Assembly: GCA_964456475.1 (NCBI GenBank)
Contig: CAYVZI010000002.1
Coordinates: forward strand, 52,659 to 104,826
Source of the DNA: an uncultured Candidatus Saccharibacteria bacterium
Lineage (GTDB): Bacteria; Patescibacteriota; Minisyncoccia; Phycocordibacterales; UBA9973
Length of the DNA: 52,168 nucleotides
Direction of reading: 5' to 3'
The notes beneath the pieces are model-generated. The model had not been told where the DNA came from. It made no database searches and saw only the letters and a program-made list of their open reading frames with translations. Numbering within the stretch: the first letter of the stretch is position 1; each line of letters begins with the position of its first letter. Below, piece after piece: positions 6,803 through 33,743 of this stretch. The translations under genes and the position numbers were made by a program.

Positions 6803-8611
6803 TTATTGTGTTTCCTTCCACGAATCCACAGTATACGAACCTGAAGGGCCAAGTACAAAGTTCACGTTCGCAAGACCGGTATCATAGGTCAAAGTTGCGC
6901 TATTAGACATGCTAATCCTGTAAGCTACAGCCTCCTTGGCACCAGCTGTGTTAGAAAAAGTGATTGTTCCATTTGGTGCTACAAGAATAACCGTACCTGC
7001 ACTGTTTGCAACATTAATAGCCGAAGATGACGATGAGGTGGTGAGCATCATCATATAACTACCCGTAGTACCTGACCCAGCGAATGCAGCCGAGTTTGAT
7101 GTTGAAACAGTACCATCAGAGATAATCATTCCACTTCCCGTTCCATATCCGGACGCGAGCTTCACGATAGCATTATTTGAGAGAACAATATTCCCCGTCA
7201 CCCAAAGCGTTCCCGACAACGTAAGCACGCCATTGTTACTGACATACAAATCACCAACAATCTTTTTTGGGCCAAGCGTAGCCGCAGAAGTACCAGAGAG
7301 CGAATAGCTACCAGTGAGAGTTCCACCAGCAAGTGCATCCGCCTTCCAGTCAGTTATTTGTGATGTTGAAATCGGAAAATTGAGCGGTGTTGGATCAGCA
7401 AGTGATGTATTACAACTCTTATTGTTTCCGCTTCCTGTTTGACAATAGAGGCTTCCTGCAATCGTTGACCCAGTGACTGTATGAGCCCAGGCATTACCTA
7501 CACTACCGGTTCCAATTGTCATTCCGCTAATAGTAGAGTTTACCCCACCGAGCGAGAGTTTGAAAAATCCATCGAGTCCAGATGGGCTCGTATTGTTCCA
7601 AGTGGTCGTTCCATATGTTCCCGTCTTTCCAAGACCGCTGGCATACCCAGCACTGTTTGCGCCCCAAATATAATAGTTTGAGGCATTTGCACTTCCATCG
7701 AGCACGACCCAGTATGTCGTACCGGCAGTAAGCGTCACGTTCGGAGAAAGTGCAACCGTTGCCCAACCATATGATGTAGTCACGGTCGATGCAGAAATTG
7801 TCCCCGTAGTAAGAGAACTTGATGAGGGCTTTCCAGAGGAATCACTGGTGATTCGCACAGTGAGATTACTCGGACTGCCCACTTTTTTTATATACACTTC
7901 CACCTGTGTGGCAGTATCAGAAATACTTGTTTGAAAACTCTGAGCTGCATCTTGTGTAGCAGAAGCATTCGCAAACGTAATCGAATGAGAGGGTGTACCC
8001 GTATCGTTGACTTGGTCAACGACTTGAGTGCTACGATCAGCGGCAAAAGCCGCTCCGGTGATTGAAGCACTCCCCGTTCCTGAAATATCACCATTCGCAT
8101 ATACATTACCGATAATCTGAGAAGAATTTGCCATAGAGAGTCCTCCATTCCCTACCTGCATACCATAGTTAAAAGAAACACCGGCTCCAGTGGTAACGAC
8201 GACATCGACAGCTCGATTGAAATCAGAGACATCACCAATACTGGTAATTTGTTTTTGTCCTCCGCTGAGATTGGTGATTGTCGTGACCGTCGAAGAACTT
8301 CCGAGCACAAGAGTAACACTCGAAGGTAGCGTCAAATTATTTTTCAAACGGTAGAATGCATCTTCGGCTCCAGACTCAGACAAAAAATAACTCTGTCGTG
8401 AAGTAAGAGCATCATTCGCAATTTTATACTCGCGAGCTGCCGGACCAGTGAGACCAAGAACAACAAGTACTGATGCCAAAATAAAGAAAATAAGCGAAAT
8501 CATCATCGCCGCTCCGCGCTCGTGGTTTGGTATTAGGTGTTTGGTGTTTGGTGATAGCTTATCCAAAACCATTTTTATTTTTTCTATGAAATTATTTTTT
8601 GAGTTTTGCAT
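6803..8611 (-). CDS. PilX/GspK-like minor pilin with large Ser/Thr/Gly-rich passenger (candidate adhesin)
   Basis: ERG|AAMMISLIF pilin-like helix lacking E5, FLSESGAEDA motif, last gene of the minor-pilin cluster, beta-rich C-terminus. Confidence 0.75.
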   Translation of the reverse strand: MQNSKNNFIEKIKMVLDKLSPNTKHLIPNHERGAAMMISLIFFILASVLVVLGLTGPAAREYKIANDALTSRQSYFLSESGAEDAFYRLKNNLTLPSSVTLVLGSSSTVTTITNLSGGQKQITSIGDVSDFNRAVDVVVTTGAGVSFNYGMQVGNGGLSMANSSQIIGNVYANGDISGTGSASITGAAFAADRSTQVVDQVNDTGTPSHSITFANASATQDAAQSFQTSISDTATQVEVYIKKVGSPSNLTVRITSDSSGKPSSSSLTTGTISASTVTTSYGWATVALSPNVTLTAGTTYWVVLDGSANASNYYIWGANSAGYASGLGKTGTYGTTTWNNTSPSGLDGFFKLSLGGVNSTISGMTIGTGSVGNAWAHTVTGSTIAGSLYCQTGSGNNKSCNTSLADPTPLNFPISTSQITDWKADALAGGTLTGSYSLSGTSAATLGPKKIVGDLYVSNNGVLTLSGTLWVTGNIVLSNNAIVKLASGYGTGSGMIISDGTVSTSNSAAFAGSGTTGSYMMMLTTSSSSSAINVANSAGTVILVAPNGTITFSNTAGAKEAVAYRISMSNSATLTYDTGLANVNFVLGPSGSYTVDSWKETQ

Positions 8612-9757: not shown

Positions 9758-10243
9758 TTAGTTACCGCTTGCGATCCCAGTCTTCGATAGCGTGATAGTC
9801 TTTTGGCCGACGGTCGTAGTACTGTCTTTTATTACAATCGTGCCGTATTGATTTGTATCACCAGTCATCTGTGCAAATACAACATCAGTTCCACCTCCTG
9901 CAATCGATACAACTGTGGCGATTCCACTCGGCAATGCAACTATCTTGTTTGTACTTGCGCTCGAATACGTACTGCCCGTAAACAATTCCAAACTACTACT
10001 TCCCACTCGAACCCCGTATTGATTTCCACCATCTGCAGAAAGTGTTCGAGATCGTGCTTCGTTCAATAGAGCTATAGATACGTCGACGGAATTATCGATT
10101 TTCTGTTTTTTTGCAAATGAACTTACTTGCATCGCAACAATTGTAGAAATGACCACAATAATCGTAACCCCAATCAGAGTTTCAATGAGAGTAAATCCGT
10201 TTATTCGTTTTGTATTCGTGTACATATGCTTTTTATTATACAC
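9758..10243 (-). CDS. Type IV minor pilin (FimT/GspH-like)
   Basis: NG|FTLIETLIG prepilin motif; LLNEARSRTL. Confidence 0.88.
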   Translation of the reverse strand: MYNKKHMYTNTKRINGFTLIETLIGVTIIVVISTIVAMQVSSFAKKQKIDNSVDVSIALLNEARSRTLSADGGNQYGVRVGSSSLELFTGSTYSSASTNKIVALPSGIATVVSIAGGGTDVVFAQMTGDTNQYGTIVIKDSTTTVGQKTITLSKTGIASGN

Positions 10244-21596: not shown

Positions 21597-23879
21597 ATGA
21601 ATGAGATGGAAAAAATGCTTCTCAGTGGCAATACAACACAAAAGAATATTAATGGAAGCCTTTTAGAAAAAGAAAGGGTAACTCCTATAGCTGAATCAAA
21701 AAACGAGTACAATGAACAAAAAGAACAGCTTCTTGCGTATCTTGAAAAAAAAGAGATTGTTGTATCAAAAAACCCGTACGTCCTAGATATCGACAAATTT
21801 AAAAATATAGTAAAATCCAGAATACAAATAAAGCAGAAATTTTTGAATCAGGATGAAATTATAAATGCCTTAGTTGGAGTAAAGTGCATATCAAAGGCAG
21901 ATATAGAATCCAACAAAACCGAAGATTCCACTTTAATTATAGAAAAACCCCTGCTTAATATACCCACAAATATTGAAGACGTCTTGAAGGGAAACATTGC
22001 TAATCCTGGCTATTTAAATCCTTGGGAGATACAAGAGAATACAAAATGGGATATACGCATTCCTCTTAGCGAAGGCAAAAATACAACCTTGGCGGAAATT
22101 TTTATCGCTCAAAAACTTAATGAACTTGGTGCACACAGAAACAATATGGGCGATTTGGAAATTATCGATCCAGCCAACAACAAACCAAAAAAGATTTCTG
22201 GATATCTTTTTCAAAAGTTAATCAAAGAACTCGGCGGAAAAGAACTGCGTATCCGAACAACACTACCCAATGAAAAAGAATACCAAACAGGCTTTGGATC
22301 AAGGGCTTTTTCTGAAAAAGTTTTACCCAATCTTTTTTCATCAGGAATTTTAAAAAACGAGGATTTTAAAACTATAGGCGGAAGTGCAGTCAGCGAATTA
22401 TACGCCATAAACGAACGGAAATTGGACCCCAAAAGTCCATACATAGGACTATCTGGTAAATATGGTTTTACACGATACTATCTCGGTAGAGACAAAATTG
22501 TCGGAACAAAAACTGAAACAAACGAGTTTATGAGCGTTATACAACTAGATCCAAATACCTTCGGCATTGTCGAAAAACTCCCTGGCAGAAATAGCCGACT
22601 CTTATACACATTCGACGGATTAAATGAGCAAGAAATAGCAAATCTACGAAGCAAGACTTCTGCTAATCTTTTATCAAAAAGTATCGAACCCACAGAAGCA
22701 AAGATTTCTGCATATTCCCTGACCGGTGGCGCAGAAATGAAAAAAAGAATCAGAGAATACAAAATCACAGAATTATTTCCTCAAAAAAAAGATGAGACTA
22801 GTGAAGTGTACGCCACACGACTATCTAATCTTAGTGATACGGATTATGTTTTAAATAATTTTAGAGAGTTTTTTAAGGACGCAAATATTGGGGTCCATAA
22901 CCTGTCTTGGATAGATCAACTTTCCATTGCTAATGCGATTTTGGAAGAAAAAAACAAAAAAAGGCTGGTTTCCTTCGCGTCAGATTATAAACTTGATGGA
23001 GTCAGAACATTTCTTTCCCTCGAACACGGTGGCAAAGAAATGAGTGACAAAATCCTTACGCTTGGTGAAAAATTACCGAGGCAAAACGCTGAATTGTTAT
23101 TCAAAAAATATGGTGAAATCATTGACGAGGTCAACAATGTGGCTGAATACTTTTCTGTATCACTCGCAAAAAATGCCACCCCAGAAATCATCGAACAAAC
23201 AAAGGAACAACTCCTCATTAAAGGCAAAGAAATGCTCGCCTACTATGCCGACCATGCAAAGACATGCGCCGAACAAGAGTGTGTTGATCTCGGCACTGAG
23301 CTCGAGACACGTCTAAAAGATTTAAAAGCATCAGTTGTATTACTTGGTTCTGCAGTCAAAACACTCGTCGAACGCGGTGAGTTCAATCTGCAAGATTTGA
23401 AAGATATCGAAATCTCATACGACGAGCATGGCTTGCAAGAAAAAGACAAAGCGGCAATCAGTGCAATGTCACACGAGAACACAAAACAGTATCCTGAAAA
23501 ACTTCGCGATTATTGGCGTGGTACCGCCGAGCAAGCACTCGAACATCCTGCTCCGGGCGAAACATTCATCAGTGTCAAATACCAAGGCGAAATCGTAGTT
23601 GTCATGCGTGTGATTCCACAAAACGACGGGTCTTTTTATGGTGCATCATTCAACGTCAATCCAAACATTCGTGGGTCACGCATCGGCACCGAACTCATGA
23701 AAGAGGTCATCGACAACTATACGAAACAAGGAGATTTTGTTGCAGATTGTTATGAGCACAATCCGATGCTCGAAAACTACACGGGCAAATTCGGTTTTGA
23801 AATAATCGACACCATCGAAAACTATCACGACACTGGTGCAACAATCAAAAAAATTATTCGTCGAAAGCAGGCGAACTAG
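21597..23879 (+). CDS. Large hypothetical protein with C-terminal GNAT-like acetyltransferase domain
   Basis: YGASFNVNPNIRGSRIGTELM acetyl-CoA binding motif A, then NPMLENYTGKFGFE motif B; N-terminal ~600 aa unassigned. Confidence 0.7.
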   Translation: MNEMEKMLLSGNTTQKNINGSLLEKERVTPIAESKNEYNEQKEQLLAYLEKKEIVVSKNPYVLDIDKFKNIVKSRIQIKQKFLNQDEIINALVGVKCISKADIESNKTEDSTLIIEKPLLNIPTNIEDVLKGNIANPGYLNPWEIQENTKWDIRIPLSEGKNTTLAEIFIAQKLNELGAHRNNMGDLEIIDPANNKPKKISGYLFQKLIKELGGKELRIRTTLPNEKEYQTGFGSRAFSEKVLPNLFSSGILKNEDFKTIGGSAVSELYAINERKLDPKSPYIGLSGKYGFTRYYLGRDKIVGTKTETNEFMSVIQLDPNTFGIVEKLPGRNSRLLYTFDGLNEQEIANLRSKTSANLLSKSIEPTEAKISAYSLTGGAEMKKRIREYKITELFPQKKDETSEVYATRLSNLSDTDYVLNNFREFFKDANIGVHNLSWIDQLSIANAILEEKNKKRLVSFASDYKLDGVRTFLSLEHGGKEMSDKILTLGEKLPRQNAELLFKKYGEIIDEVNNVAEYFSVSLAKNATPEIIEQTKEQLLIKGKEMLAYYADHAKTCAEQECVDLGTELETRLKDLKASVVLLGSAVKTLVERGEFNLQDLKDIEISYDEHGLQEKDKAAISAMSHENTKQYPEKLRDYWRGTAEQALEHPAPGETFISVKYQGEIVVVMRVIPQNDGSFYGASFNVNPNIRGSRIGTELMKEVIDNYTKQGDFVADCYEHNPMLENYTGKFGFEIIDTIENYHDTGATIKKIIRRKQAN

Positions 23880-24654
23880 ACTTTTTTTCTTCTCCAGCAA
23901 CCGGAGTAGAATTTTTCCAATATCCGTCAAAAATAATTTTCATAGTTTCTGCAATTTCTTTGTCTTCAATAATAAGACCCACAATTTTTTCTTTTGAAAA
24001 TGTAAGCATACTCGTCTTGTTATCGTACGTCAAAAGTGCGGTTGGAAATGATTTGACTCCAGAAGCTGTTCGAAACGAAGTGAGTTCAGTTCCCTTTTTT
24101 GCATACTCAGCATTGAAGTCATTATCGGAGACAATCATGCGTTTCTGTATTCCATTCGCAACTCTCTTCTTCAGATGTCGTACTGTCTCCTCAGGAAACT
24201 GGTTCATTGCAAGCTGCATGTCTGTAATCTGGCGAATTTCCTTGTCTACAGAAGGAAGATCCCCCGTTATTTTCAGTATGGCTTCTTCTCCTTCATAAAA
24301 CTGCACGTTTGGCTTACCGGCGATCAGATTGTATTTCGAAGCAAGCGATCCGAGTGAATGCTCGAGCATATCTTTGGCAAGGGCCAATTCTTTTTCCTTA
24401 CGTTCAATATTGCCCATAAGAAGGGACGGATGTCCGGCCACGAACACAGCCACGCTTCCCTCTCCACCCCGCTTCTCTACTAGACCGATAGCCTCAAGCT
24501 GTTCCAAGACCTTGTACGTAAGGCCTCTTTTGATGCCAGTCCAGTCGGCAAGTGCACTTGCTCTCTGTGGCCCCTTGTCCAATAGAGCCTCGTACGTAAG
24601 TGCCTGCTCTTCAGAGAGTCCAGCTTCTATAAGTAGATTGTTGCTGTTTTGCAT
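23854..24654 (-). CDS. TrmB-family HTH transcriptional regulator (copy 1)
   Basis: AGLSEEQALTYEALL..G..ASALA..TGIKRGLTYKVLEQL..IGLV wHTH; PNVQFYEG linker. Confidence 0.88.
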   Translation of the reverse strand: MQNSNNLLIEAGLSEEQALTYEALLDKGPQRASALADWTGIKRGLTYKVLEQLEAIGLVEKRGGEGSVAVFVAGHPSLLMGNIERKEKELALAKDMLEHSLGSLASKYNLIAGKPNVQFYEGEEAILKITGDLPSVDKEIRQITDMQLAMNQFPEETVRHLKKRVANGIQKRMIVSDNDFNAEYAKKGTELTSFRTASGVKSFPTALLTYDNKTSMLTFSKEKIVGLIIEDKEIAETMKIIFDGYWKNSTPVAGEEKKSSSPAFDE

Positions 24655-25579: not shown

Positions 25580-25680
25580 GCGTTCATTGTTTGCTTTAAT
25601 ATTTAGCAGTATAGCAATGAACATTTGTCCCCGGATGACACAAACTGCCGGCGGTCTGATTTCTGCGAGAAGAAATCGAT

Positions 25681-25763
25681 GGGTAAAAAGGGTAAACATA
25701 TTCCCCGATTGGAAACAATCGGGGCCTTATTCAGCTCACGAAATTTTCGTTGGCTGATTGGGA
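25681..25763 (+). repeat. Intergenic module A (partial: hairpins 1 and 2)
   Basis: ccccgattg/caatcgggg then cttattcagctcacgaa..tcgttggctgattggga. Confidence 0.85.
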
Positions 25764-25859
25764 GGAAAGCCAAAATGTGCAAGCCTGTCGTGTACCGCGC
25801 CGACATAAAAAAAGCGGGATAGTAATACGTGTGCGAAGATCAGTACCACACTTACTCGA

Positions 25860-26690
25860 ATGGAAAGCAACTCGATATATTGCTTTTGCGGCGCCATGTC
25901 CAAGAAAAATACATGGCAACAATTCCGAGGCTCTCATATCGGGAGGTCAAACCAAACCCAGGCTCGGCTGGTGATTTTATTTATGACACAGTCATCAAAT
26001 ATTTTCGGAAAAAAAGTAGTTATTAGTAAAAAATCCCAAGAAATTGGGAGATATGTTAATTACAAAATTCAAATCGGGAGCGACGACCCGATTTTTGTTT
26101 CGAAGGATGCCGCCCGACAAGGACGGTGGTCCTTCGACACAAAAAGTTTTTTCAAAGGGGGTTCTTCCCCTTTGGACCAAGACGAATTGGAGATCATTCT
26201 CCAATTCGTAAAATTCTTAATCGTCTTCCAAGCGTATGAGTATACGCTTGGAACAAGGAGGAATTTCCTCCTGTCAGTAGAGACCACTGGGGTCGAAAAG
26301 GCCTCCGACGGTTACCATGACTTTGACTACCGAAAGGAAGTTAAGCTGGAGTCGGTAAACTCCAATTGGGGCAGCCGCTCCGCAATGAGTATCTACGCCC
26401 AATTCGACGGTCATGTGACCAACGAAGGAGGCAATCAATTGTTGGAGCGGTATTATTCGGCTCCAATACCTTTTATCAATATGACGCTTCAGGCAACTGA
26501 AGAGTCAATGATACGAAGGCTCGGTGAGCCAATCGGTCAAATGGAAATCTTTAACCCTCGGCCGAGGGAAAAGGAATACATTGAAAACTTCGGCACGGCC
26601 GAAGTAATTGATGGAAACAACCCGCTGGCAACGGCGTGGTTTGTTTTAAAAATTTTGCCAACATACTATATGTTGGCAAATATGAGGTAG
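25860..26690 (+). CDS. Hypothetical protein, array 1 ORF2 (start may be 25986)
   Basis: 276-aa open frame; family not recognised. Confidence 0.6.
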   Translation: MESNSIYCFCGAMSKKNTWQQFRGSHIGRSNQTQARLVILFMTQSSNIFGKKVVISKKSQEIGRYVNYKIQIGSDDPIFVSKDAARQGRWSFDTKSFFKGGSSPLDQDELEIILQFVKFLIVFQAYEYTLGTRRNFLLSVETTGVEKASDGYHDFDYRKEVKLESVNSNWGSRSAMSIYAQFDGHVTNEGGNQLLERYYSAPIPFINMTLQATEESMIRRLGEPIGQMEIFNPRPREKEYIENFGTAEVIDGNNPLATAWFVLKILPTYYMLANMR

Positions 26691-26846
26691 GGGTTTAGGG
26701 TTACAAAAAAAATGGCTCCGATTTTCTAATCGGAGCCCTTATTCAGTTCACGAAGCAATTCGTTGGCTGATAGGGATTCATACCTAGAATTTTGGTTCAC
26801 TTAGTTTTTCAATTTTGGAAAGTTAAGTGAACCAAAATTTAATAAA
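26691..26846 (+). repeat. Intergenic module B (hairpins 1, 2, 3)
   Basis: ggctccgatt/aatcggagcc; cttattcag..ctgatagg; aattttggttcactta/taagtgaaccaaaatt directly before ATG. Confidence 0.9.
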
Positions 26847-27071
26847 ATGTTGATCAGAAAAATCCACCTGTATAAGGTGGAACACCGCTACCACCATAGT
26901 GTAGCGGGATATTTAAATGGGCCGAGATCCTATTGGACAGCCCTGAAACCCGACCTCAGCCGGGTGTACGTAGTTGAGGAAAAAAACGACACCCTCGTAA
27001 GAGGGTGGGTTTGGTTTGTATTTGGGGCACTAGCCTCAGGCGCTGTTTGCTTTTTGACAGCAAACATCTAA
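26847..27071 (+). CDS. Small protein with C-terminal TM helix, array 1 ORF3
   Basis: 74 aa, ends WVWFVFGALASGAVCFLTANI. Confidence 0.6.
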   Translation: MLIRKIHLYKVEHRYHHSVAGYLNGPRSYWTALKPDLSRVYVVEEKNDTLVRGWVWFVFGALASGAVCFLTANI

Positions 27072-27162
27072 CCATCTGTCACCGAATGACATTAACTGCC
27101 GGCGCGTATTCTGAAATTGCGAGAAGTGAGTAAGAAAAGTACAAACTCAAAAATTTATTGTG

Positions 27163-27696
27163 ATGAACAAGAAAATTTTTAGTTTTGATGCCGAGACCAA
27201 CGGTCTTTGGGGCCGGGCGTTTTCGATTGCCGCTATCGTCTATGACGAGAACGGTGCGGAGACGATCCGCTTCATTGGCCGGTGTCCAATCGAAGGCGAA
27301 ACAAACAGCTGGGTAGCTGAAAATGTTTTGCCAAAGATGATGGACATCGCCGAGTCTCACGGCTCGTATGATGAACTGCTAAAAGCTTTTGCGGATTTTT
27401 ACAAATCCAACAAAGCCGATGCAGATATCATTGTGCATATGGGCGTGCCTGTGGAGTCAACACTTCTCAAGGATACTCATAGCCGTGGGTATATCGGCGA
27501 TTGGGACGGTCCGTTCCCCCTCATCGACATTGCAGGCAATCTGCAACAAGCCGGTGAGAATCCTACTTCAGTCGACGAATACGTCGCCAAGTATGGATTG
27601 GAGGTGCGCGATTTTGGCACGACACACAACCCGCTGTATGACAGCGAAGTTGCTGCAGTAGTGTATCGCCACCTTCAGGGACGGATTACTCAGTAA
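27163..27696 (+). CDS. DnaQ-like DEDDh 3'-5' exonuclease
   Basis: FSFDAETNG ExoI, PLIDI, THNPLYD ExoIII. Confidence 0.8.
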   Translation: MNKKIFSFDAETNGLWGRAFSIAAIVYDENGAETIRFIGRCPIEGETNSWVAENVLPKMMDIAESHGSYDELLKAFADFYKSNKADADIIVHMGVPVESTLLKDTHSRGYIGDWDGPFPLIDIAGNLQQAGENPTSVDEYVAKYGLEVRDFGTTHNPLYDSEVAAVVYRHLQGRITQ

Positions 27697-27762
27697 TCGG
27701 TCAGGCATTTGAGTGAGACTCCGAGCATGATACCAGCTTGGGAACAGAAGGTATCACAATAA

Positions 27763-27920
27763 GGGGTTACGGGTTATCGTATTTCCCCGATTGAGTAATC
27801 AATCGGGGCCTTATTCAGCCCACGAAATTTTCGTGGGCTGATAGGGATTGCTTACTTTCTGGTTGTTTTAGTTTTTTCAGAATGCCTAATTGGTTCTTTG
27901 AGAAAACTAAAACAACAAAA
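27763..27920 (+). repeat. Intergenic module C (hairpins 1, 2, 3)
   Basis: ccccgattg/caatcgggg; cttattcagcccacgaa/ttcgtgggctgatagg; gttgttttagtttt/aaaactaaaacaac before ATG. Confidence 0.9.
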
Positions 27921-28202
27921 ATGAAAGAAAGATCAATGAGCGAACTTGAATTCGCTCAGATAGTTTTTGAAAATGGGCTCTTTCTAGAGAGTCCATTAAA
28001 TTCAAAATCCTTTATGGCAGAAAATGCCACAGAGGAGAGCAAGGTGACTGAGAAACATGGGTGCTTCTCGTTTATGGGATCAATATACTTGATCTCATTC
28101 TCGGTTTCCTACGGGGAACCGAGTAAATCATGCAATCCCAGCAGTGGGTATTGCAAGGAGACAAAAATAATATCCGAGATTACCCGGATTATTTTACCCT
28201 AA
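27921..28202 (+). CDS. Hypothetical protein, array 1 ORF5
   Basis: 93-aa ORF starting MKERSMSELEF after module C. Confidence 0.55.
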   Translation: MKERSMSELEFAQIVFENGLFLESPLNSKSFMAENATEESKVTEKHGCFSFMGSIYLISFSVSYGEPSKSCNPSSGYCKETKIISEITRIILP

Positions 28203-28358
28203 GGGTTACTATGGTTTAAAAAACGGCCGAACAGAATATCGTTCGGCCTCTTATTCAGTCCGCGAAGCAATTCGTTGGCTGATAGGAATTCATACCTATA
28301 ATTTTAGTTCACTTAGTTTTTCAAGTTTGGAATATTAAGTGAACTAAAATTCAAAAAT
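28203..28358 (+). repeat. Intergenic module D (hairpins 1, 2, 3)
   Basis: ggccgaac/gttcggcc; cttattcag..ctgatagg; aattttagttcactta/taagtgaactaaaatt before ATG; closely similar to module B. Confidence 0.9.
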
Positions 28359-29707: not shown

Positions 29708-31237
29708 ATGTCTACATTTACTATATTGCTGATTGCAGCAGGCGCCCTCGTAGCGGGTCTTTTTTGCGGATACTATCTCCGCAAGATCACCGCGCTTGGA
29801 CAGCGTCGCTCAATCGAAATCGACATCAAACAGATGTTGGTTGGTGCCAAAGAAGAAGCGGCTCGCATCACTGATGAAGCCAAGAAAAAAGCTGAGGAAA
29901 CCGAATCTGACCTTCGTATGATGGAACGTCAGAAGAACGAAGACTTCAAAAAGACGGAAGATCGCTTGATTAAAAAGGAAGAATTGCTCGATGCTCGTCA
30001 AACCGAAATCGACAAGGAAACCGAGCTCCAAAAGATGAAGATCGAGGAGATCAAGAAGATCAAAGAAAAGGGCGACGCCATGCTCGCAGAGCGTGTTGCC
30101 ACACTCGAAAAAGTAGCTGGTCTTTCACGTGAAGACGCAAAAAACGAACTCGTTCGCGAAATCGAACGCGAGTCTGAAGAAGACCTCATGATTCGCATGC
30201 AGAAGCTTGAGCAAAATTCTCAAGAACGCATGGATCGCCGTGCAAAGGATATCCTTGCAACCTCTATCCAGCGTCTCGCCTCTTCGACTGCAGCTGAGAT
30301 TATGACGACCAACGTCGCCATCCCATCTGACGACATCAAGGGCAAGATCATTGGAAAGGAAGGACGCAACATTCGCGCATTCGAACGCGCAGCCGGTGTT
30401 GAACTCATCGTCGATGAAACTCCTGGAGTCATCATCATTTCAGCCTTTGATCCTGTACGCCGACAAATCGCTCGCGTCGCTCTTGAGAATCTCATTCTCG
30501 ATGGACGCATTCAGCCAGCCAAAATCGAAGAAGTGGTAGAAAAAGCCAAGGAAGACATCAATAAGATCATCAAAGAAAAGGGTGAGCAGGCAGTGTACGA
30601 ATGTGGAATCTTCAATTTCGACCCACGCATCATCGCCATCTTGGGACGCCTCTACTTCCGCACATCATACGGACAAAACGTGCTTCAGCACTCAATCGAG
30701 ATGACACACATTGCCGGAATGATTGCCGAAGAGCTCGGTGCCGACGTTGCAATCGCCAAGCAAGGTGCACTCGTACACGACATCGGAAAAGCGCTCGACC
30801 ATGAAGTACAAGGTACGCACATCGATATCGGTATCCGCATCCTCCAGAAATTCGGTGCTGATCCTCGTGTGATTCAAGCAATGAAATCTCACCACGACGA
30901 CTGTCCACATGAAACAATCGAAGCCGTAATCGTGCAGACTGCCGACAATATTTCCGGCGGACGCCCAGGTGCACGACGCGACAGTGTTGAGAACTACCTC
31001 AAGCGCTTGCACGAAATGGAAGCACTCGTAAACGCTTTCCCAAATATCGACAAGTCATACGCGCTCTCTGCCGGCCGTGAAATCCGCATCTTCGTCACTC
31101 CAGAAAAAGTCACCGATGTCGAAGCAAAAGAAATGGCCCGTGAGATAGCGAAGAAAATGGAAACTGAACTCAAGTACCCAGGCGAAATCAAAGTGACGAT
31201 GATAAGAGAGACTCGAATCATCGAGTACGCCCGTTAG
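29708..31237 (+). CDS. rny: Ribonuclease Y
   Basis: N-terminal TM, coiled coil, KH domain (GKIIGKEGRNIR), HD domain (LVHDIGKA), YPGEIKVTMIRETR. Confidence 0.98.
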   Translation: MSTFTILLIAAGALVAGLFCGYYLRKITALGQRRSIEIDIKQMLVGAKEEAARITDEAKKKAEETESDLRMMERQKNEDFKKTEDRLIKKEELLDARQTEIDKETELQKMKIEEIKKIKEKGDAMLAERVATLEKVAGLSREDAKNELVREIERESEEDLMIRMQKLEQNSQERMDRRAKDILATSIQRLASSTAAEIMTTNVAIPSDDIKGKIIGKEGRNIRAFERAAGVELIVDETPGVIIISAFDPVRRQIARVALENLILDGRIQPAKIEEVVEKAKEDINKIIKEKGEQAVYECGIFNFDPRIIAILGRLYFRTSYGQNVLQHSIEMTHIAGMIAEELGADVAIAKQGALVHDIGKALDHEVQGTHIDIGIRILQKFGADPRVIQAMKSHHDDCPHETIEAVIVQTADNISGGRPGARRDSVENYLKRLHEMEALVNAFPNIDKSYALSAGREIRIFVTPEKVTDVEAKEMAREIAKKMETELKYPGEIKVTMIRETRIIEYAR

Positions 31238-31356
31238 TCTCTTCAGACATTACAAAAGACGCCCAATAGCATTAGGGGCGGCTTTTGTGATATTAAAAAA
31301 GCACACTCTTTATTTTAAGGTGTGCTTTTGTGAACAATTTTATGTTTCTCTTAATC

Positions 31357-31794
31357 TTATTTTCTATACAATGCTATCCTTGCTCCTTTACGAAATCCAT
31401 CTGGTGCTGAGATTCTTGTTATTTCAGAAGCTTTTCCGTCATTGTGGAATTTATAAAAACACATGCAACGAACGTCCATTCCGCGAAACCCCCTGCCATG
31501 ATCGCAATACAACAGACTTCCAATAAAATGGATGTACTCATCTGTATTTTTTGCATTAGCTGGAATTTCTTCTGGATGATTCATCAGGAAATCATAAACG
31601 GTTGCATTCAAAGGAATTTTTTCCTTTTGCATCTCTAAATATTTCACAAGATCATCCCAACTTGTATCCTCTTTGCATACATATAATTCAAAGTTTTGGG
31701 AATTCCACTCGATTACCCCATGTTTATCATGACTAAATAACATATCATTTGTGCGAAGATTCGGTACTTCATTGGTATTGATTATGTGTTTCAT
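31357..31794 (-). CDS. Hypothetical protein, array 2 ORF3
   Basis: 145 aa; PLNATVYDFLMNHPEEIP..IHFIGS resembles a recurrent uncharacterised CPR family (from memory, unverified). Confidence 0.7.
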   Translation of the reverse strand: MKHIINTNEVPNLRTNDMLFSHDKHGVIEWNSQNFELYVCKEDTSWDDLVKYLEMQKEKIPLNATVYDFLMNHPEEIPANAKNTDEYIHFIGSLLYCDHGRGFRGMDVRCMCFYKFHNDGKASEITRISAPDGFRKGARIALYRK

Positions 31795-31800
31795 ATATTT

Positions 31801-31855
31801 GTTTTAAAAGGTTACCCAAATTTCCCAGAGAGAATCTCGGGTAACCTTTTAAAAC
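31801..31855. repeat. Long palindrome directly upstream of ORF 31794 start
   Basis: gttttaaaaggttaccc/gggtaaccttttaaaac, 17-bp perfect arms. Confidence 0.8.
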
Positions 31856-31870
31856 TTTGGAAAAGAGCTT

Positions 31871-31920
31871 CTGTTTCGTCCTTTTGGACTCATCAGGCAA
31901 AGCAGTTCACTTTGCGACAG
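31871..31920 (-). ncRNA. Type III hammerhead ribozyme HHR-1
   Basis: Minus strand: CUGUC^GCAAAG-UGAACUG-CUUUGC-CUGAUGA-GUCC-AAAA-GGAC-GAAA-CAG; full core, three stems, GUC cleavage triplet. Confidence 0.93.
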
Positions 31921-32015
31921 TGCGGTAGAATTATCTCCACCGCTTTTATGTTAGGCACGTTTACGAAAGGCTGTGTCCATTTACCTTTTGCTCTGTCCCC
32001 AAGAGCCGGGCATCT

Positions 32016-32414
32016 TTAGGCTTCGACGGCCGTTTTCTGGAATTCAACTTTCTGCAAAAAATCTATCAGGTACTGATCGACAAAACCGGAAGCCCCGTTT
32101 TTGTTTATTGATCCGTCCCAGATGTCGTCTTTTGATTCTGACGTTGAATACAAAAATGTCTTTGCCGTGTCGTTGGCTAATTTCACCCGCAAGGTCAGCT
32201 GAGGGCCCTGCTCTTCCTGGGAAGTCCATGTTTTTCCGAGGACGACCAGGCAATTCTTCTGTCGTTGCGCTTTCAGCACAATTTCCTCGGAATTGCTGGA
32301 GATGAAAATTCTCTCGGCCACTTCCTGAGAAAAATGTGCCGCAACGGCTTGTTTGATCGTGCGGACATCGCTCGCCAAAGTCTGGCCGATAAAAATACAA
32401 GATATGTTCCTCAT
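32016..32414 (-). CDS. Hypothetical protein, possibly a degenerate receiver (CheY-like) fold, array 2 ORF2
   Basis: Start MRNISCIFIG at 32414 (the longer call runs through HHR-2); alternating beta/alpha pattern, GPQL..VK...TFLYS..DG.INK. Confidence 0.6.
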   Translation of the reverse strand: MRNISCIFIGQTLASDVRTIKQAVAAHFSQEVAERIFISSNSEEIVLKAQRQKNCLVVLGKTWTSQEEQGPQLTLRVKLANDTAKTFLYSTSESKDDIWDGSINKNGASGFVDQYLIDFLQKVEFQKTAVEA

Positions 32415-32438
32415 GCTATTAAATTTTTTGAAAGAATT

Positions 32439-32490
32439 ACTGTTTCGCTCTTTTGAGCTCATCAGGAGAAGCAATACACTTCTCGACAGT
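32439..32490 (-). ncRNA. Type III hammerhead ribozyme HHR-2
   Basis: Minus strand: ACUGUC^GAGAAG-UGUAUUG-CUUCUC-CUGAUGA-GCUC-AAAA-GAGC-GAAA-CAGU; compensatory stems relative to HHR-1. Confidence 0.94.
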
Positions 32491-32552
32491 GCCATGATTT
32501 TTTACATGGCCTTGATTTATAAAGCATTTTACGATTAGGCTGCTTCGTTTTC

Positions 32553-32849
32553 CTAGGTTTTGGGTACAACACAAAACATGTGGGCTATCGATCTAGGCTT
32601 GAAACCCGACATCTTCTGGCCGTCAGGCAAAAGCAGAGAAAGCTCCTTTACCTCTACCCATGTAGAACCTATAAATTCAGCGTCTTCAGGGATGTCAGTA
32701 TTTTCTTTTACATACCCTTTTATATGCTTAGCAACAGAACCACCCTCCTGGATGAAAATAACCTCTGATACTTCTCTCACTAGAGTATTTTCTCTCGGAT
32801 CGTTTTCTGTACGTTCGTATACTATGTAGTACCAGTTACCGACACTCAT
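32553..32849 (-). CDS. Hypothetical protein, array 2 ORF1
   Basis: Probable start MSVGNWYYIVYE at 32849. Confidence 0.6.
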   Translation of the reverse strand: MSVGNWYYIVYERTENDPRENTLVREVSEVIFIQEGGSVAKHIKGYVKENTDIPEDAEFIGSTWVEVKELSLLLPDGQKMSGFKPRSIAHMFCVVPKT

Positions 32850-32940
32850 GCTTTCGTTTTTTATGAATGAACAATTTATTTCGTATACATTATGCAATGG
32901 TTTTCCATTTCTGTCATATATGTCGTCATTTATTGAAATA

Positions 32941-32993
32941 TTGACAAAAATTCCATATTTTATATACTATTATTGTTGTCGAAATTTTCGACA
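32941..32993 (+). promoter_or_regulatory. Promoter and palindromic operator of TrmB copy 2
   Basis: TTGACA-N16-TATACT (32941-32968); tgtcgaaa-t-tttcgaca (32977-32993). Confidence 0.65.
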
Positions 32994-32999
32994 TAAAAT

Positions 33000-33743
33000 A
33001 TGAAAAACGAGAAACTATACGGAATATTGAAAGAAATAGGGCTAACCGACGATGAATCGGCTGTGTATTTGGCGAGCCTTTCGCTTGGAATTACGACTGT
33101 GCTCAAAATAGCCAAGGCTACAAACATCAAAAGAACGACAATCTATGGGATTATTGATTCGCTTAAAGAAAAAGGTCTTATGCGCATTGAGCTCAAAGGA
33201 TTAAAACAGCTCTATGCAGTCGAAAGCCCTGAGCGCTTGAATCTCATGCTCGAACGCAAAAAAGACGAGTTTGCAAAAAATCTGCCAGAATTCATGGCTC
33301 TCTATAAACTCGATGGGGGCGAAAGCGTCATCAAGTACTACACTGGCCTTCAGACAATGAAAGATATCTATCGTGACACACTCAAAGAAATAAAACCACA
33401 TCAAGACTATCTTGTAATCGCAAACGAAGAAAAATGGAGAAGCTTGGATCCGGGATTTGCTCTCTCGTATACAGAAGAACGAGCAAAACTACCGATAAAG
33501 ACTCGAATGCTCTTCCAAGACTCCCCTGTTGCACGTGAAGAAAAGAAATTTGAACGCAACTTCAACCACGAAATCAAAATCCTTCCGGAGAGCACCCCGC
33601 TCAACGTCGACACTCTCCTTCTCCCGAACAAACTCATCACATTTGAAATGACCCCGCCGTACATGACGGTAGTGATAGAAAACAAAAGCATCATTGAACT
33701 CCACCGCGAAATGTTCGAGATAATTTGGAAATCAATCAAGTAA
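33000..33743 (+). CDS. TrmB-family HTH transcriptional regulator (copy 2)
   Basis: IGLTDDESAVYLASL, IAKATNIKRTTIYGIIDSLKEKGL, SVIKYYTG. Confidence 0.88.
   Translation: MKNEKLYGILKEIGLTDDESAVYLASLSLGITTVLKIAKATNIKRTTIYGIIDSLKEKGLMRIELKGLKQLYAVESPERLNLMLERKKDEFAKNLPEFMALYKLDGGESVIKYYTGLQTMKDIYRDTLKEIKPHQDYLVIANEEKWRSLDPGFALSYTEERAKLPIKTRMLFQDSPVAREEKKFERNFNHEIKILPESTPLNVDTLLLPNKLITFEMTPPYMTVVIENKSIIELHREMFEIIWKSIK

What the first reader, a model, noticed from the sequence alone, without database searches (positions are those of the whole stretch)
31357..32849. Tandem type III hammerhead ribozymes punctuate a three-gene orphan operon
Seen: both intergenic gaps of the minus-strand operon (32553-32849, 32016-32414, 31357-31794) hold a complete hammerhead (31871-31920 and 32439-32490). 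Each has an intact CUGAUGA/GAAA core, a GUC triplet, a U-started 7-nt loop I and an AAAA loop II. Stems covary: GCAAAG/CUUUGC vs GAGAAG/CUUCUC, and GUCC/GGAC vs GCUC/GAGC. Each is preceded by a separate hairpin (31922-31943; 32491-32510). Established: hammerhead cleavage leaves 5'-OH and 2',3'-cyclic phosphate ends. Inference: the polycistron cuts itself into monocistronic units, each upstream piece ending in a protective 3' hairpin and each downstream piece carrying a 5'-OH that resists 5'-monophosphate-dependent decay. Covariation argues for maintained function in a chromosomal locus with no mobile genes nearby.
Basis: partly seen in the sequence, partly recalled or inferred. Interest (0 to 1): 0.92.

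Follow-up and report, generated by a model that had tools for sequence, protein, structure and literature searches.

The report
Hammerhead ribozymes separating three orphan genes
Two genuine self-cutting hammerhead RNAs sit between three small orphan genes, a known kind of arrangement, here in a large, apparently undescribed family found mostly in Patescibacteria-labelled genomes.

Summary
Two canonical type III hammerheads lie on the minus strand at 32439-32490 and 31871-31920. Each has an abutting 5' hairpin and predicted cleavage at 32485/32484 and 31916/31915. No other copy exists in the window. They belong to a large family: 132 distinct copies, with stems I and II 99.5% paired and 4-5 pair types per position. 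Among the genome hits, most come from Patescibacteria-labelled MAGs. The same subtype is also frequent in IMG/VR viral contigs. In 43 of 120 genome loci, several same-strand hammerheads lie about 0.5-1.1 kb apart, each interval about the size of one small gene. Self-processing of a polycistron into single-gene RNAs is therefore the best reading. That idea, with in vitro cleavage of tandem bacterial hammerheads, was published in 2011, so this is a new member of a known kind. The claim that a 5'-OH protects the downstream RNA is doubtful. In Bacillus subtilis the glmS ribozyme's 5'-OH product is degraded by RNase J1. A 5'-terminal stem I is the more plausible shield. The locus differs between close strains, like a shuffled cassette array. 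In passing I found a second, covarying hairpin motif absent from Rfam. It occupies the same junction slot four times at 25725-28287.

The parts
33000..33743 (+). Divergently transcribed TrmB-family HTH regulator, likely controlling the operon promoter
   Evidence: Pfam PF01978 E 7.8e-12. The orthologue in L005 is 97% identical and the one in L002 is 70% identical, and each heads a small-ORF array.
32889..32917 (-). Sigma-70-like promoter candidate (ATGACA-17-CATAAT) upstream of ORF A
   Evidence: Consensus scan, 10 of 12 matches. This is a pattern match only.
32553..32849 (-). ORF A, 98 aa, orphan
   Evidence: Matches only itself among 5.8 billion proteins. No Pfam, PHROG or PADLOC hit. Its frame scores best of the six frames on codon usage.
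32521..32546 (-). Lineage-specific junction sequence (GAAGCA-GCCUAAUCGUAAAA-UGCUUU), shared with the HH2 junction and with L002
   Evidence: Alignment A1. The motif is found only in this lineage, and its fold is no more stable than that of shuffled sequences.
32491..32510 (-). Hairpin abutting stem III of HH1 (GCCAUG-8 nt-CAUGGC); it becomes the 3' end structure of the ORF A RNA after cleavage
   Evidence: Folding. The feature is conserved across the family, 69% against 22% in controls.
32439..32490 (-). Hammerhead 1, type III; predicted cleavage between 32485 and 32484
   Evidence: Rfam RF00008 at 41.9 bits. Family model R1 at 69.7 bits. Sequence read directly.
32431..32436 (-). UUCUUU box directly 3' of HH1, followed by an A-rich leader up to the ORF B start codon
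   Evidence: A TCTTT box follows 41% of family copies in genome loci, against 3% of control windows and 4% of viral loci.
32016..32414 (-). ORF B, 132 aa, orphan with a CheY/REC-like predicted fold that lacks a conserved acidic pocket
   Evidence: three relatives at 29-35% identity. AlphaFold2 pLDDT 72 and Foldseek TM about 0.6 to receiver domains. Alignment A2.
31954..31978 (-). Second copy of the lineage-specific junction sequence (with a 1-nt deletion)
   Evidence: Alignment A1.
31922..31943 (-). Hairpin abutting stem III of HH2 (GCGGUGGA-6 nt-UCUACCGC)
   Evidence: Folding, z-score -4.65 together with the ribozyme.
31871..31920 (-). Hammerhead 2, type III; predicted cleavage between 31916 and 31915
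   Evidence: Rfam at 38.7 bits. R1 at 67.5 bits. The orthologous copy in L002 at 9866-9921 keeps the fold, with one loop I change.
31861..31868 (-). GCUCUUUU box 3' of HH2
31801..31855 (-). Long leader hairpin (20-bp main stem, capped by a short apical helix) 6 nt before the ORF C start codon; conserved in L002 before three genes
   Evidence: -31.9 kcal/mol, z-score -6.0. L002 copies at 6806-6860, 7441-7495 and 9936-9990.
31357..31794 (-). ORF C, 145 aa, a real protein-coding gene under purifying selection; function unknown
   Evidence: dN/dS 0.057 against L002, the same level as the adjacent RNase Y at 0.047. Only two homologues. The AlphaFold2 model is unusable, pLDDT 40.
31295..31329 (-). 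Intrinsic terminator (13-bp stem plus U6) ending the operon, convergent with RNase Y
   Evidence: Folding, z-score -5.2.

Best explanation
The three genes are transcribed as one RNA from the promoter they share with the divergent TrmB regulator gene. As each intergenic hammerhead emerges it folds into a 6-bp stem I, a 4-bp stem II and a 4-5-bp stem III, with stem III stacked end-to-end on the abutting upstream hairpin. It then cuts itself after C17, at 32485 and 31916. Because stem III is so short, the two halves separate. This would give three single-gene RNAs. The ORF A and ORF B RNAs end in a stable hairpin plus ACUGUC with a 2',3'-cyclic phosphate, which blocks 3' exonucleases such as the PNPase encoded in this window. 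The ORF B and ORF C RNAs begin with a 5'-OH nucleotide already paired in stem I, followed by the rest of the ribozyme, a UCUUU box and an A-rich, Shine-Dalgarno-less leader. The effect would be to uncouple the stability and translation of neighbouring, unrelated cassette genes. Status of each step: the ribozyme identity, its family-wide structural conservation, the conserved hairpin and the array architecture are shown; the cleavage chemistry is established for the class; co-transcription, in vivo cleavage and the stabilising effects are inferred.
For: The catalytic core and topology are canonical. A family-specific model gives 69.7 and 67.5 bits, with no other site in the window above 11.7 bits. 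Across 132 distinct relatives, stems I and II are 99.5-99.6% paired with 4-5 pair types per position, and 0 of 500 shuffles reach the observed covariation. The orthologous hammerhead upstream of ORF C is retained in L002, where synonymous sites are saturated (dS 1.75). A hairpin ends 0-2 nt before the ribozyme in 69% of copies, in both genome and viral loci, against 22% of controls. 43 of 120 genome loci carry two to nine hammerheads on the same strand at a median spacing of 721 nt, and only 4 loci have them on both strands; the window's spacing is 569 nt. Flanking open frames favour the ribozyme strand (p about 1e-3). There is one promoter-like site, one terminator, and no promoter-like site placed to drive ORF B or ORF C (the one weak internal match, 31808-31781, has its -10 hexamer inside ORF C). 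Two of the three distant ORF B homologues are also preceded by a hammerhead plus box. Tandem bacterial hammerheads in comparable arrangements cleaved efficiently in vitro (PMC3088659). The window encodes PNPase and RNase Y.
Against: No transcript data were available. Co-transcription, cleavage in the cell and any stability effect are therefore untested. Both copies score below Rfam's curated threshold. Loop I-loop II tertiary contacts, which are needed for fast cleavage at cellular Mg2+, could not be assessed. A 5'-OH is a decay signal in B. subtilis, so cleavage might destabilise rather than protect the downstream genes. The closest strain does without both ribozymes, so they are not essential for ORF C expression.
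Confidence: 0.65

Rival explanations
1. Circular RNA production. The 569-nt RNA released between the two cuts (32484 to 31916, carrying ORF B) is re-closed by the reverse hammerhead reaction or by an RtcB-type ligase, as in viroid-like RNAs and retrozymes.
For: The two ribozymes are direct repeats with the same stem III strands (ACUGU / ACAG). The excised RNA's 3' end (ACUGUC>p) could therefore pair with its own 5'-proximal hammerhead body and rebuild a complete, nicked ribozyme. CUGU/ACAG is also the most common stem III among the 35 hammerheads in these loci that fall outside the exact CUGUC/ACAG class (11 of 35, with H17 = A or U). The inter-ribozyme spacing is 0.5-1.1 kb. Perreault et al. 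raised this possibility.
Against: Perreault et al. looked for circular or spliced products in their tandem arrays and found none. 72 of 120 loci have a single hammerhead, which cannot excise a circle. The segment is an ordinary ORF with a leader, not a non-coding repeat unit. No RtcB gene was seen in the window, though only part of it was annotated.
Confidence: 0.1
2. 3'-end maker or insulator only. The hairpin-plus-hammerhead unit serves to define and protect the 3' end of the upstream gene, as a terminator substitute. The downstream genes would be expressed mainly from their own promoters, or the cleaved 5'-OH downstream RNA would be degraded, so cleavage would down-tune distal genes.
For: The conserved partner of the ribozyme is the upstream hairpin, present in 69% of copies in both phage and cellular loci. 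The downstream UCUUU box, by contrast, is host-specific: 41% in genome loci against 0-4% in viral loci. 5'-OH ends are RNase J1 substrates in B. subtilis. One ORF B homologue has a sigma-70-like promoter directly before the same box and leader (L129).
Against: No promoter-like site is placed to drive ORF B or ORF C. After cleavage the new 5' nucleotide is paired in stem I, which should hinder a 5' exonuclease. ORF C is under strong purifying selection downstream of HH2.
Confidence: 0.12
3. Hitch-hiking junction of mobile or phage-derived gene cassettes. The hammerheads came in with horizontally acquired cassettes and persist as part of a roughly 200-nt repeated junction module. That module promotes recombination, with little benefit to the host operon.
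For: The same hammerhead subtype is abundant in IMG/VR viral contigs (at least 120 hits). Junction modules are homologous over about 200 nt within and between genomes. Cassette content differs between near-identical strains, and the L005 arrangement corresponds to loss or gain of ORF A-HH1-ORF B-HH2 between two similar A-rich leaders. ORF B has a deviant GC3 of 0.56, against 0.31-0.41 for ORFs C and A. Downstream genes are extremely heterogeneous: 125 clusters among 143 ORFs.
Against: This explains the distribution, not the conservation. Stems I and II covary perfectly while the core stays invariant, which means selection for catalysis. Few downstream genes match phage families. No recombinase lies in the window near the locus.
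Confidence: 0.1

Closest known systems
Clustered or tandem hammerheads flanking genes in bacterial and prophage polycistrons (Perreault et al. 2011, PMC3088659: Agrobacterium tumefaciens ardA locus, Clostridium scindens, Azorhizobium caulinodans)
   Same: Several same-orientation hammerheads bracket single genes or short gene blocks of varied, often hypothetical, function. Processing into gene-length mRNAs was proposed, and all ribozymes in about 2-kb transcripts cleaved in vitro.
   Different: Those cases lay mostly in prophages or near integrases, and many were type II. Here the setting is a chromosomal, TrmB-headed array with no phage genes in the window. All copies are type III with a very short stem III, an abutting 5' hairpin and a 3' UCUUU box. 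I did not find those composite features mentioned in that paper.
Rfam RF00008 Hammerhead_3 (viroid and satellite type III hammerheads)
   Same: Same core, same topology, and a GUC cleavage triplet.
   Different: Stem III is 4-5 bp instead of 7, and loop II is a tetraloop, a 4-nt deletion relative to the model. Scores therefore fall below the gathering cut-off. The context is DNA-encoded and between genes, not a rolling-circle replicon.
RNase III processing sites between the early genes of phage T7 (from my own knowledge, not checked here)
   Same: A polycistronic RNA is cut between each gene, leaving hairpins at the 3' ends of the upstream products.
   Different: T7 uses a host protein enzyme, whereas here the RNA cuts itself. 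The second motif noticed at 25725-28287 may be the protein-dependent counterpart.
glmS ribozyme of Bacillus subtilis
   Same: Self-cleavage in an mRNA leader gives a 5'-OH downstream product.
   Different: There the 5'-OH triggers RNase J1 decay and the ribozyme is metabolite-dependent. Here there is no ligand pocket, and the new 5' end is base-paired.
Retrozymes and viroid-like circular RNAs with type III hammerheads (PMC5680766)
   Same: Direct-repeat type III hammerheads lie about 0.6-1 kb apart and could excise a unit-length RNA with ligatable ends.
   Different: No long terminal repeats were seen, and primer-binding or polypurine sites were not looked for. The unit here encodes a protein, and the host is bacterial.
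Synthetic ribozyme insulators such as RiboJ (from my own knowledge, not checked here)
   Same: A hammerhead is followed by a hairpin in front of a coding sequence, standardising the 5' end of each cistron.
   Different: RiboJ is an engineered part, whereas this would be a natural equivalent.

Membership tests
Hammerhead ribozyme, type III | Core strand C3-U4-G5-A6-N7-G8-A9 between stems I and II | tested here: met
   CUGAUGA is present in both copies and invariant in 132 relatives.
Hammerhead ribozyme, type III | G12-A13-A14 plus the A15.1-U16.1 pair between stems II and III | tested here: met
   GAAA is followed by CAG, and A15.1 pairs with the U of GUC.
Hammerhead ribozyme, type III | Cleavage triplet N-U-H, where H is not G | tested here: met
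   GUC in both copies, with C17 at 32485 and 31916.
Hammerhead ribozyme, type III | Three helices around the core, with stems I and II closed by loops, stem III open, and no mispair next to the core | tested here: met
   Stem I is 6 bp, stem II 4 bp and stem III 5 bp (HH1) or 4 bp (HH2). Pairs 1.1-2.1, 10.1-11.1 and 15.2-16.2 are G-C or C-G. Covariation across the family: 12 of 17 pairs show double changes and 93.6% of cells are paired.
Hammerhead ribozyme, type III | Rfam RF00008 curated gathering score of 48.5 bits (a database inclusion threshold, not a biochemical criterion) | tested here: not met
   41.9 and 38.7 bits, with whole-window E-values of 8e-6 and 6e-5. The shortfall comes from the short stem III and the 4-nt loop II.
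Hammerhead ribozyme, type III | Loop I-loop II tertiary contact that supports fast cleavage at cellular Mg2+ | not testable with these tools
   Loop I (about UGUGUA) and loop II (AAAA or GAAA) are conserved in the family, which suggests a contact but does not prove one.
Hammerhead ribozyme, type III | Site-specific self-cleavage giving 2',3'-cyclic phosphate and 5'-OH ends | not testable with these tools
   This needs an in vitro transcription assay or RNA end mapping.
Clustered intergenic hammerhead arrays (Perreault 2011) | Two or more same-strand hammerheads flanking single genes inside one transcription unit | tested here: met
   The two copies are 569 nt apart in the sense orientation, with one promoter-like site and one terminator. 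The same holds in 43 of 120 related loci.
Clustered intergenic hammerhead arrays (Perreault 2011) | Prophage or integrase neighbourhood | tested here: not met
   No phage or recombinase domains were found in the annotated neighbours. Relatives L002 and L131 do have recombinases 4-10 kb away.
Retrozyme / viroid-like circular RNA | A non-coding unit bounded by hammerhead-containing repeats, accumulating as circular RNA | tested here: not met
   The unit is a 132-codon ORF whose frame scores best of six. Circularity is not testable here.

The most novel reading that the evidence does not exclude
The two hammerheads would be one instance of a modular gene-junction system found mostly in Patescibacteria-labelled genomes. 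In it, interchangeable RNA devices occupy the same slot, between an abutting 5' hairpin and a GUUCUUU/A-rich leader. One device is the type III hammerhead. The other is a bulged hairpin absent from Rfam, CUUUAUUCAG-[7-9 bp hairpin]-CUGAUAGAG. It occurs four times in this window (25725-28287) and sits between the small ORFs next to RNase Y in a sister strain (L135). Under this reading the second device is a new class of self-cleaving ribozyme, following the logic by which new ribozyme classes have been sought next to known ribozymes, as done for hairpin ribozymes in PMC10085705. The repeated junction modules would also drive shuffling of orphan-gene cassettes between strains.
Probability: 0.15. 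Interest if true: 0.85.

Novelty: new member of a known kind. Interest (0 to 1): 0.42.

Why it matters
Natural roles of bacterial hammerheads remain largely unproven. This locus offers a clean and small test case: two ribozymes, three genes, one promoter and one terminator. It belongs to a very large family that my literature searches did not find described for Patescibacteria. If cleavage and end-protection are confirmed, it would show that reduced-genome bacteria use ribozymes as routine operon punctuation for fast-turnover orphan genes. The composite design (stacked hairpin, short stem III, 5'-terminal stem I) would explain how both products are stabilised. The co-located second motif gives a concrete candidate for a new RNA-processing element.

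Tried and rejected
- **Rfam at gathering thresholds:** no hammerhead reported. The E-value mode was needed.
- **UCUUU box pairing with the ribozyme or with upstream sequence** (an alternative fold or an extended stem III): duplex energies equal those of cross-locus and shuffled controls. Rejected.
- **UCUUU box as a general leader signal of this genome:** present upstream of 13 of 37 genes against 19% of random windows, which is too weak to claim. It is absent after viral hammerheads, so it is host-specific rather than part of the ribozyme.
- **Hairpin with a conserved 14-nt loop (GCCUWWUCGUAAAA) upstream of each ribozyme:** found only in this lineage, with a fold no better than shuffles. I treat it as shared ancestry of the junction modules.
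- **Second motif as a variant or permuted hammerhead:** rejected. Its 'CUGAU' covaries with 'AUCAG' as a helix (UUGGU with AUCCAA), and no GAAA block is in place. No Rfam family matches it.
- **L002 gaps 7340-7440 and 7795-7870** (terminator-like hairpin plus a second hairpin): no Rfam match, not pursued.
- **ORF function:** the ORF C model is unusable, pLDDT 40. ORF B has only a generic REC-like fold, with no conserved Asp after strand 3. PADLOC gives nothing for the ORFs.
- **Taxonomy of the window:** The Patescibacteria assignment is an inference from the shared RNA families, the type IV pilus genes and the relatives' records.
- **Contig ends of Logan assemblies as a proxy for RNA ends:** L001 starts inside HH1 but not at the cleavage site, so this is uninformative.
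Full report
**1.

Read on the minus strand, both intergenic gaps contain a textbook type III hammerhead. HH1 spans 32490-32439 and reads ACUGUC|GAGAAG-UGUAUUG-CUUCUC-CUGAUGA-GCUC-AAAA-GAGC-GAAA-CAGU. HH2 spans 31920-31871 and reads CUGUC|GCAAAG-UGAACUG-CUUUGC-CUGAUGA-GUCC-AAAA-GGAC-GAAA-CAG.

The two copies differ by two compensatory pair exchanges in stem I and two in stem II. None of the differences is disruptive. The preceding hairpins at 32491-32510 and 31922-31943 fold as described.

Rfam's default scan reports only four tRNAs. In E-value mode RF00008 matches both sites end to end at 41.9 and 38.7 bits, with whole-window E-values of 8e-6 and 6e-5. These scores fall below the 48.5-bit gathering score. 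The shortfall comes from stem III, which is only 4-5 bp, and from loop II, which is a tetraloop. The core pattern occurs only at these two sites, against 0.06 expected by chance. A model built from relatives scores them 69.7 and 67.5 bits, with the next best site at 11.7 bits.

**2. The transcription unit**

- A TrmB-family regulator gene (33000-33743, plus strand) diverges from the operon.
- A promoter-like site, ATGACA-17-CATAAT, lies at 32917-32889.
- No promoter-like site is placed to drive ORF B or ORF C. The one weak internal match (31808-31781) has its -10 hexamer inside ORF C.
- A strong intrinsic terminator at 31295-31329 (z-score -5.2) follows ORF C and faces the convergent RNase Y gene.
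- A long hairpin of -31.9 kcal/mol, with a 20-bp main stem (31801-31855), sits between HH2 and the ORF C start codon.

ORFs A and B have no relative in a word-seeded search of 5.8 billion proteins. An exhaustive HMMER search finds three relatives of ORF B at 29-35% identity. ORF C has two close relatives. It is under purifying selection as strong as that on RNase Y, with dN/dS 0.057 against 0.047. The annotated frame scores best of six for all three ORFs, with atypical codon usage.

ORF B is predicted to have a CheY/REC-like fold without a conserved acidic pocket. Nothing matches Pfam, PHROGs or PADLOC. The window is otherwise ordinary chromosome: RecJ, PGK, type IV pilus PilB and PilC, NusA, PNPase, RNase Y, HU, a CCA-adding enzyme and tRNAs. 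None of about 40 genes has a Shine-Dalgarno motif.

**3. The family**

Of the first 80 record titles, 59 name Patescibacteria/CPR lineages, 10 are unnamed 'bacterium' records, and 11 name other phyla.

Of 150 pattern matches, 141 pass stem checks. In 132 distinct sequences:

- Stem I is 99.5% paired and stem II 99.6% paired, with 4-5 pair types per position.
- The core is invariant.
- 0 of 500 shuffles reach the observed covariation.

Stem III has the four fixed pairs plus a fifth pair in 71% of copies. A hairpin ends 0-2 nt before the ribozyme in 69% of copies, against 22% of control windows. The most common spacing places the hairpin directly against the fifth stem III pair. That geometry suits coaxial stacking, which is my inference.

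A GUUCUUU box followed by an A-rich run lies 3-7 nt after the ribozyme. TCTTT occurs in 41% of copies against 3% of controls. The box shows no excess complementarity to the ribozyme or to upstream sequence.

A structural descriptor finds 199 hammerheads in these loci. 43 of 120 loci have two to nine copies on one strand, only 4 loci have copies on both strands, and the median spacing is 721 nt (interquartile range 512-1136). The window's spacing of 569 nt is typical. Flanking open frames favour the ribozyme strand.

Downstream genes are very diverse. 143 ORFs form 125 clusters, no Pfam family has more than 3 members, and few match phage families.

The same subtype is also abundant in IMG/VR viral contigs, with at least 120 hits. 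There the abutting hairpin is equally frequent (69%), but the GUUCUUU box is absent (0-4%). The hairpin therefore belongs with the ribozyme, and the box belongs with the cellular host.

**4. Strain variation**

- In L002 (RNase Y dS 1.8) the hammerhead upstream of ORF C is retained with one loop change. A second copy sits in the array headed by the orthologous TrmB.
- In L005 (TrmB 97% identical, ORF C 96% identical) ORF C follows the promoter leader directly. ORF A, HH1, ORF B, HH2 and the leader hairpin are all absent, and the breakpoints fall in two similar A-rich leaders.
- Strains with at least 90% identical RNase Y carry quite different small-ORF arrays at this position. One has its hammerheads on the other side of RNase Y.
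- The junction modules are homologous over about 200 nt.

The locus therefore behaves as a shuffled cassette array rather than a fixed operon.

**5. Mechanism**

The best reading is co-transcriptional self-cleavage that resolves the polycistron into single-gene RNAs. Upstream products would end in a hairpin plus ACUGUC with a cyclic phosphate, a block to PNPase-type exonucleases. Downstream products would begin with a nucleotide already paired in stem I.

In B. subtilis the glmS ribozyme's 5'-OH product is degraded by RNase J1. Rival readings are circular RNA formation, a pure 3'-end maker, and a hitch-hiking cassette junction. They are listed with their evidence in the rival explanations.

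Two of the three distant ORF B homologues are also preceded by a hammerhead plus box. The third is preceded by a sigma-70-like promoter plus the same box. This suggests that cleavage produces a 5' leader equivalent to that of a primary transcript.

**6. Comparison with what is known**

Perreault et al. 2011 described multiple hammerheads flanking single genes or short blocks in prophage polycistrons. They proposed processing into gene-length mRNAs, showed complete cleavage of three tandem arrangements in vitro, and looked without success for spliced or circular products. The present case is a new member of that kind.

What I did not find described is threefold: the association with Patescibacteria, the abutting hairpin, and the GUUCUUU box. 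The literature I could search is limited to open-access papers.

**7. Noticed on the way: a second junction motif**

The neighbouring array, headed by a second TrmB gene at 23854-24654, has no hammerheads. Instead it carries four copies of another element, at 25725-25762, 26737-26775, 27809-27846 and 28249-28287. Each consists of a variable abutting hairpin, then CUUUAUUCAG-[hairpin]-CUGAUAGAG with a bulged U and one internal mismatch, usually followed by a long leader hairpin and the start codon.

A model of this element (R2) finds 28 distinct copies in 14 loci. They are 94% paired, and 12 of 15 pairs show compensatory changes, although the alignment was fitted to the model. In 12 of 13 other loci that carry both elements it is co-oriented with the hammerheads. 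In other genomes it is followed by the same GUUCUUU box.

In strain L135 it sits between the small ORFs next to RNase Y. It has no Rfam match and is absent from 80 hammerhead-bearing viral loci. It is either a protein-nuclease site, for which the bulged, stacked helices fit RNase III substrates, or a candidate new ribozyme.

**8. Verdict**

This is a real and neatly organised pair of ribozymes. Interest is moderate for the finding itself and higher for the family-wide architecture and the second motif.

Noticed in passing
window 25725-25762, 26737-26775, 27809-27846, 28249-28287 (+ strand): Four copies of a conserved bulged hairpin absent from Rfam, CUUUAUUCAG-[7-9 bp hairpin]-CUGAUAGAG. Each is preceded by an abutting variable hairpin, the same slot the hammerheads occupy. 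Model R2 finds 28 distinct copies in 14 mostly Patescibacteria loci, with 94% of cells paired and 12 of 15 pairs showing compensatory changes. It is co-oriented with hammerheads, has no Rfam match and is absent from viral hammerhead loci. It is a candidate RNase III-type site or a new ribozyme.
   Followed up: partly
window 23854-24654 (-) and 25860-28202 (+): A second TrmB paralogue heads another divergent array of small ORFs with no Pfam hit (25860-26690, 27160-27696, 27882-28202). Two of these (27160-27696, 27882-28202) and a short unlisted ORF at about 28359 are preceded by a long leader hairpin (about 26782-26838, 27858-27918, 28294-28350). ORF 27160-27696 is 68% identical to an ORF that lies downstream of a hammerhead in L008.
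   Followed up: partly
window 25635-25653 and 27086-27104 (+): A repeated 19-nt sequence, ATGACANNAACTGCCGGCG (2 matches against 0.01 expected), lies inside GC-rich, apparently structured intergenic stretches of 300-400 nt upstream of two array genes. No Rfam match.
   Followed up: no
whole window, regions upstream of gene starts: None of about 40 genes has a GGAG-type Shine-Dalgarno motif correctly placed upstream of its start codon. Leaders are A/U-rich.
   Followed up: no
L002 7340-7440 and 7795-7870: Two gene junctions in the related array lack a hammerhead. Instead they carry a terminator-like hairpin (GGGCG..CGCCC-UGAUUUUU) followed by a second hairpin (UUUUGAGAACA..UGUGUUUUCAAAA), with a G:C to C:G compensatory change between the two copies. 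No Rfam match.
   Followed up: partly
L005, L131, L135 compared with window 31200-33000: The region beside RNase Y is hypervariable between strains whose RNase Y is at least 90% identical. The small-ORF sets differ entirely. In L131 a large serine recombinase lies about 3.5 kb away. In L135 the hammerheads are on the opposite side of RNase Y.
   Followed up: partly
L017 (contig CAXXBX010000061.1, labelled Dehalococcoidia): An 8-kb stretch carries nine to eleven same-strand type III hammerheads, each separating an ORF of about 110-190 aa. This is the densest array seen.
   Followed up: no
L138-L257 (IMG/VR viral contigs): The same hammerhead subtype with the abutting 5' hairpin is frequent in predicted viral contigs, but these copies lack the GUUCUUU box. 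Loop I there is mostly UGUGUG rather than UGUGUA.
   Followed up: partly
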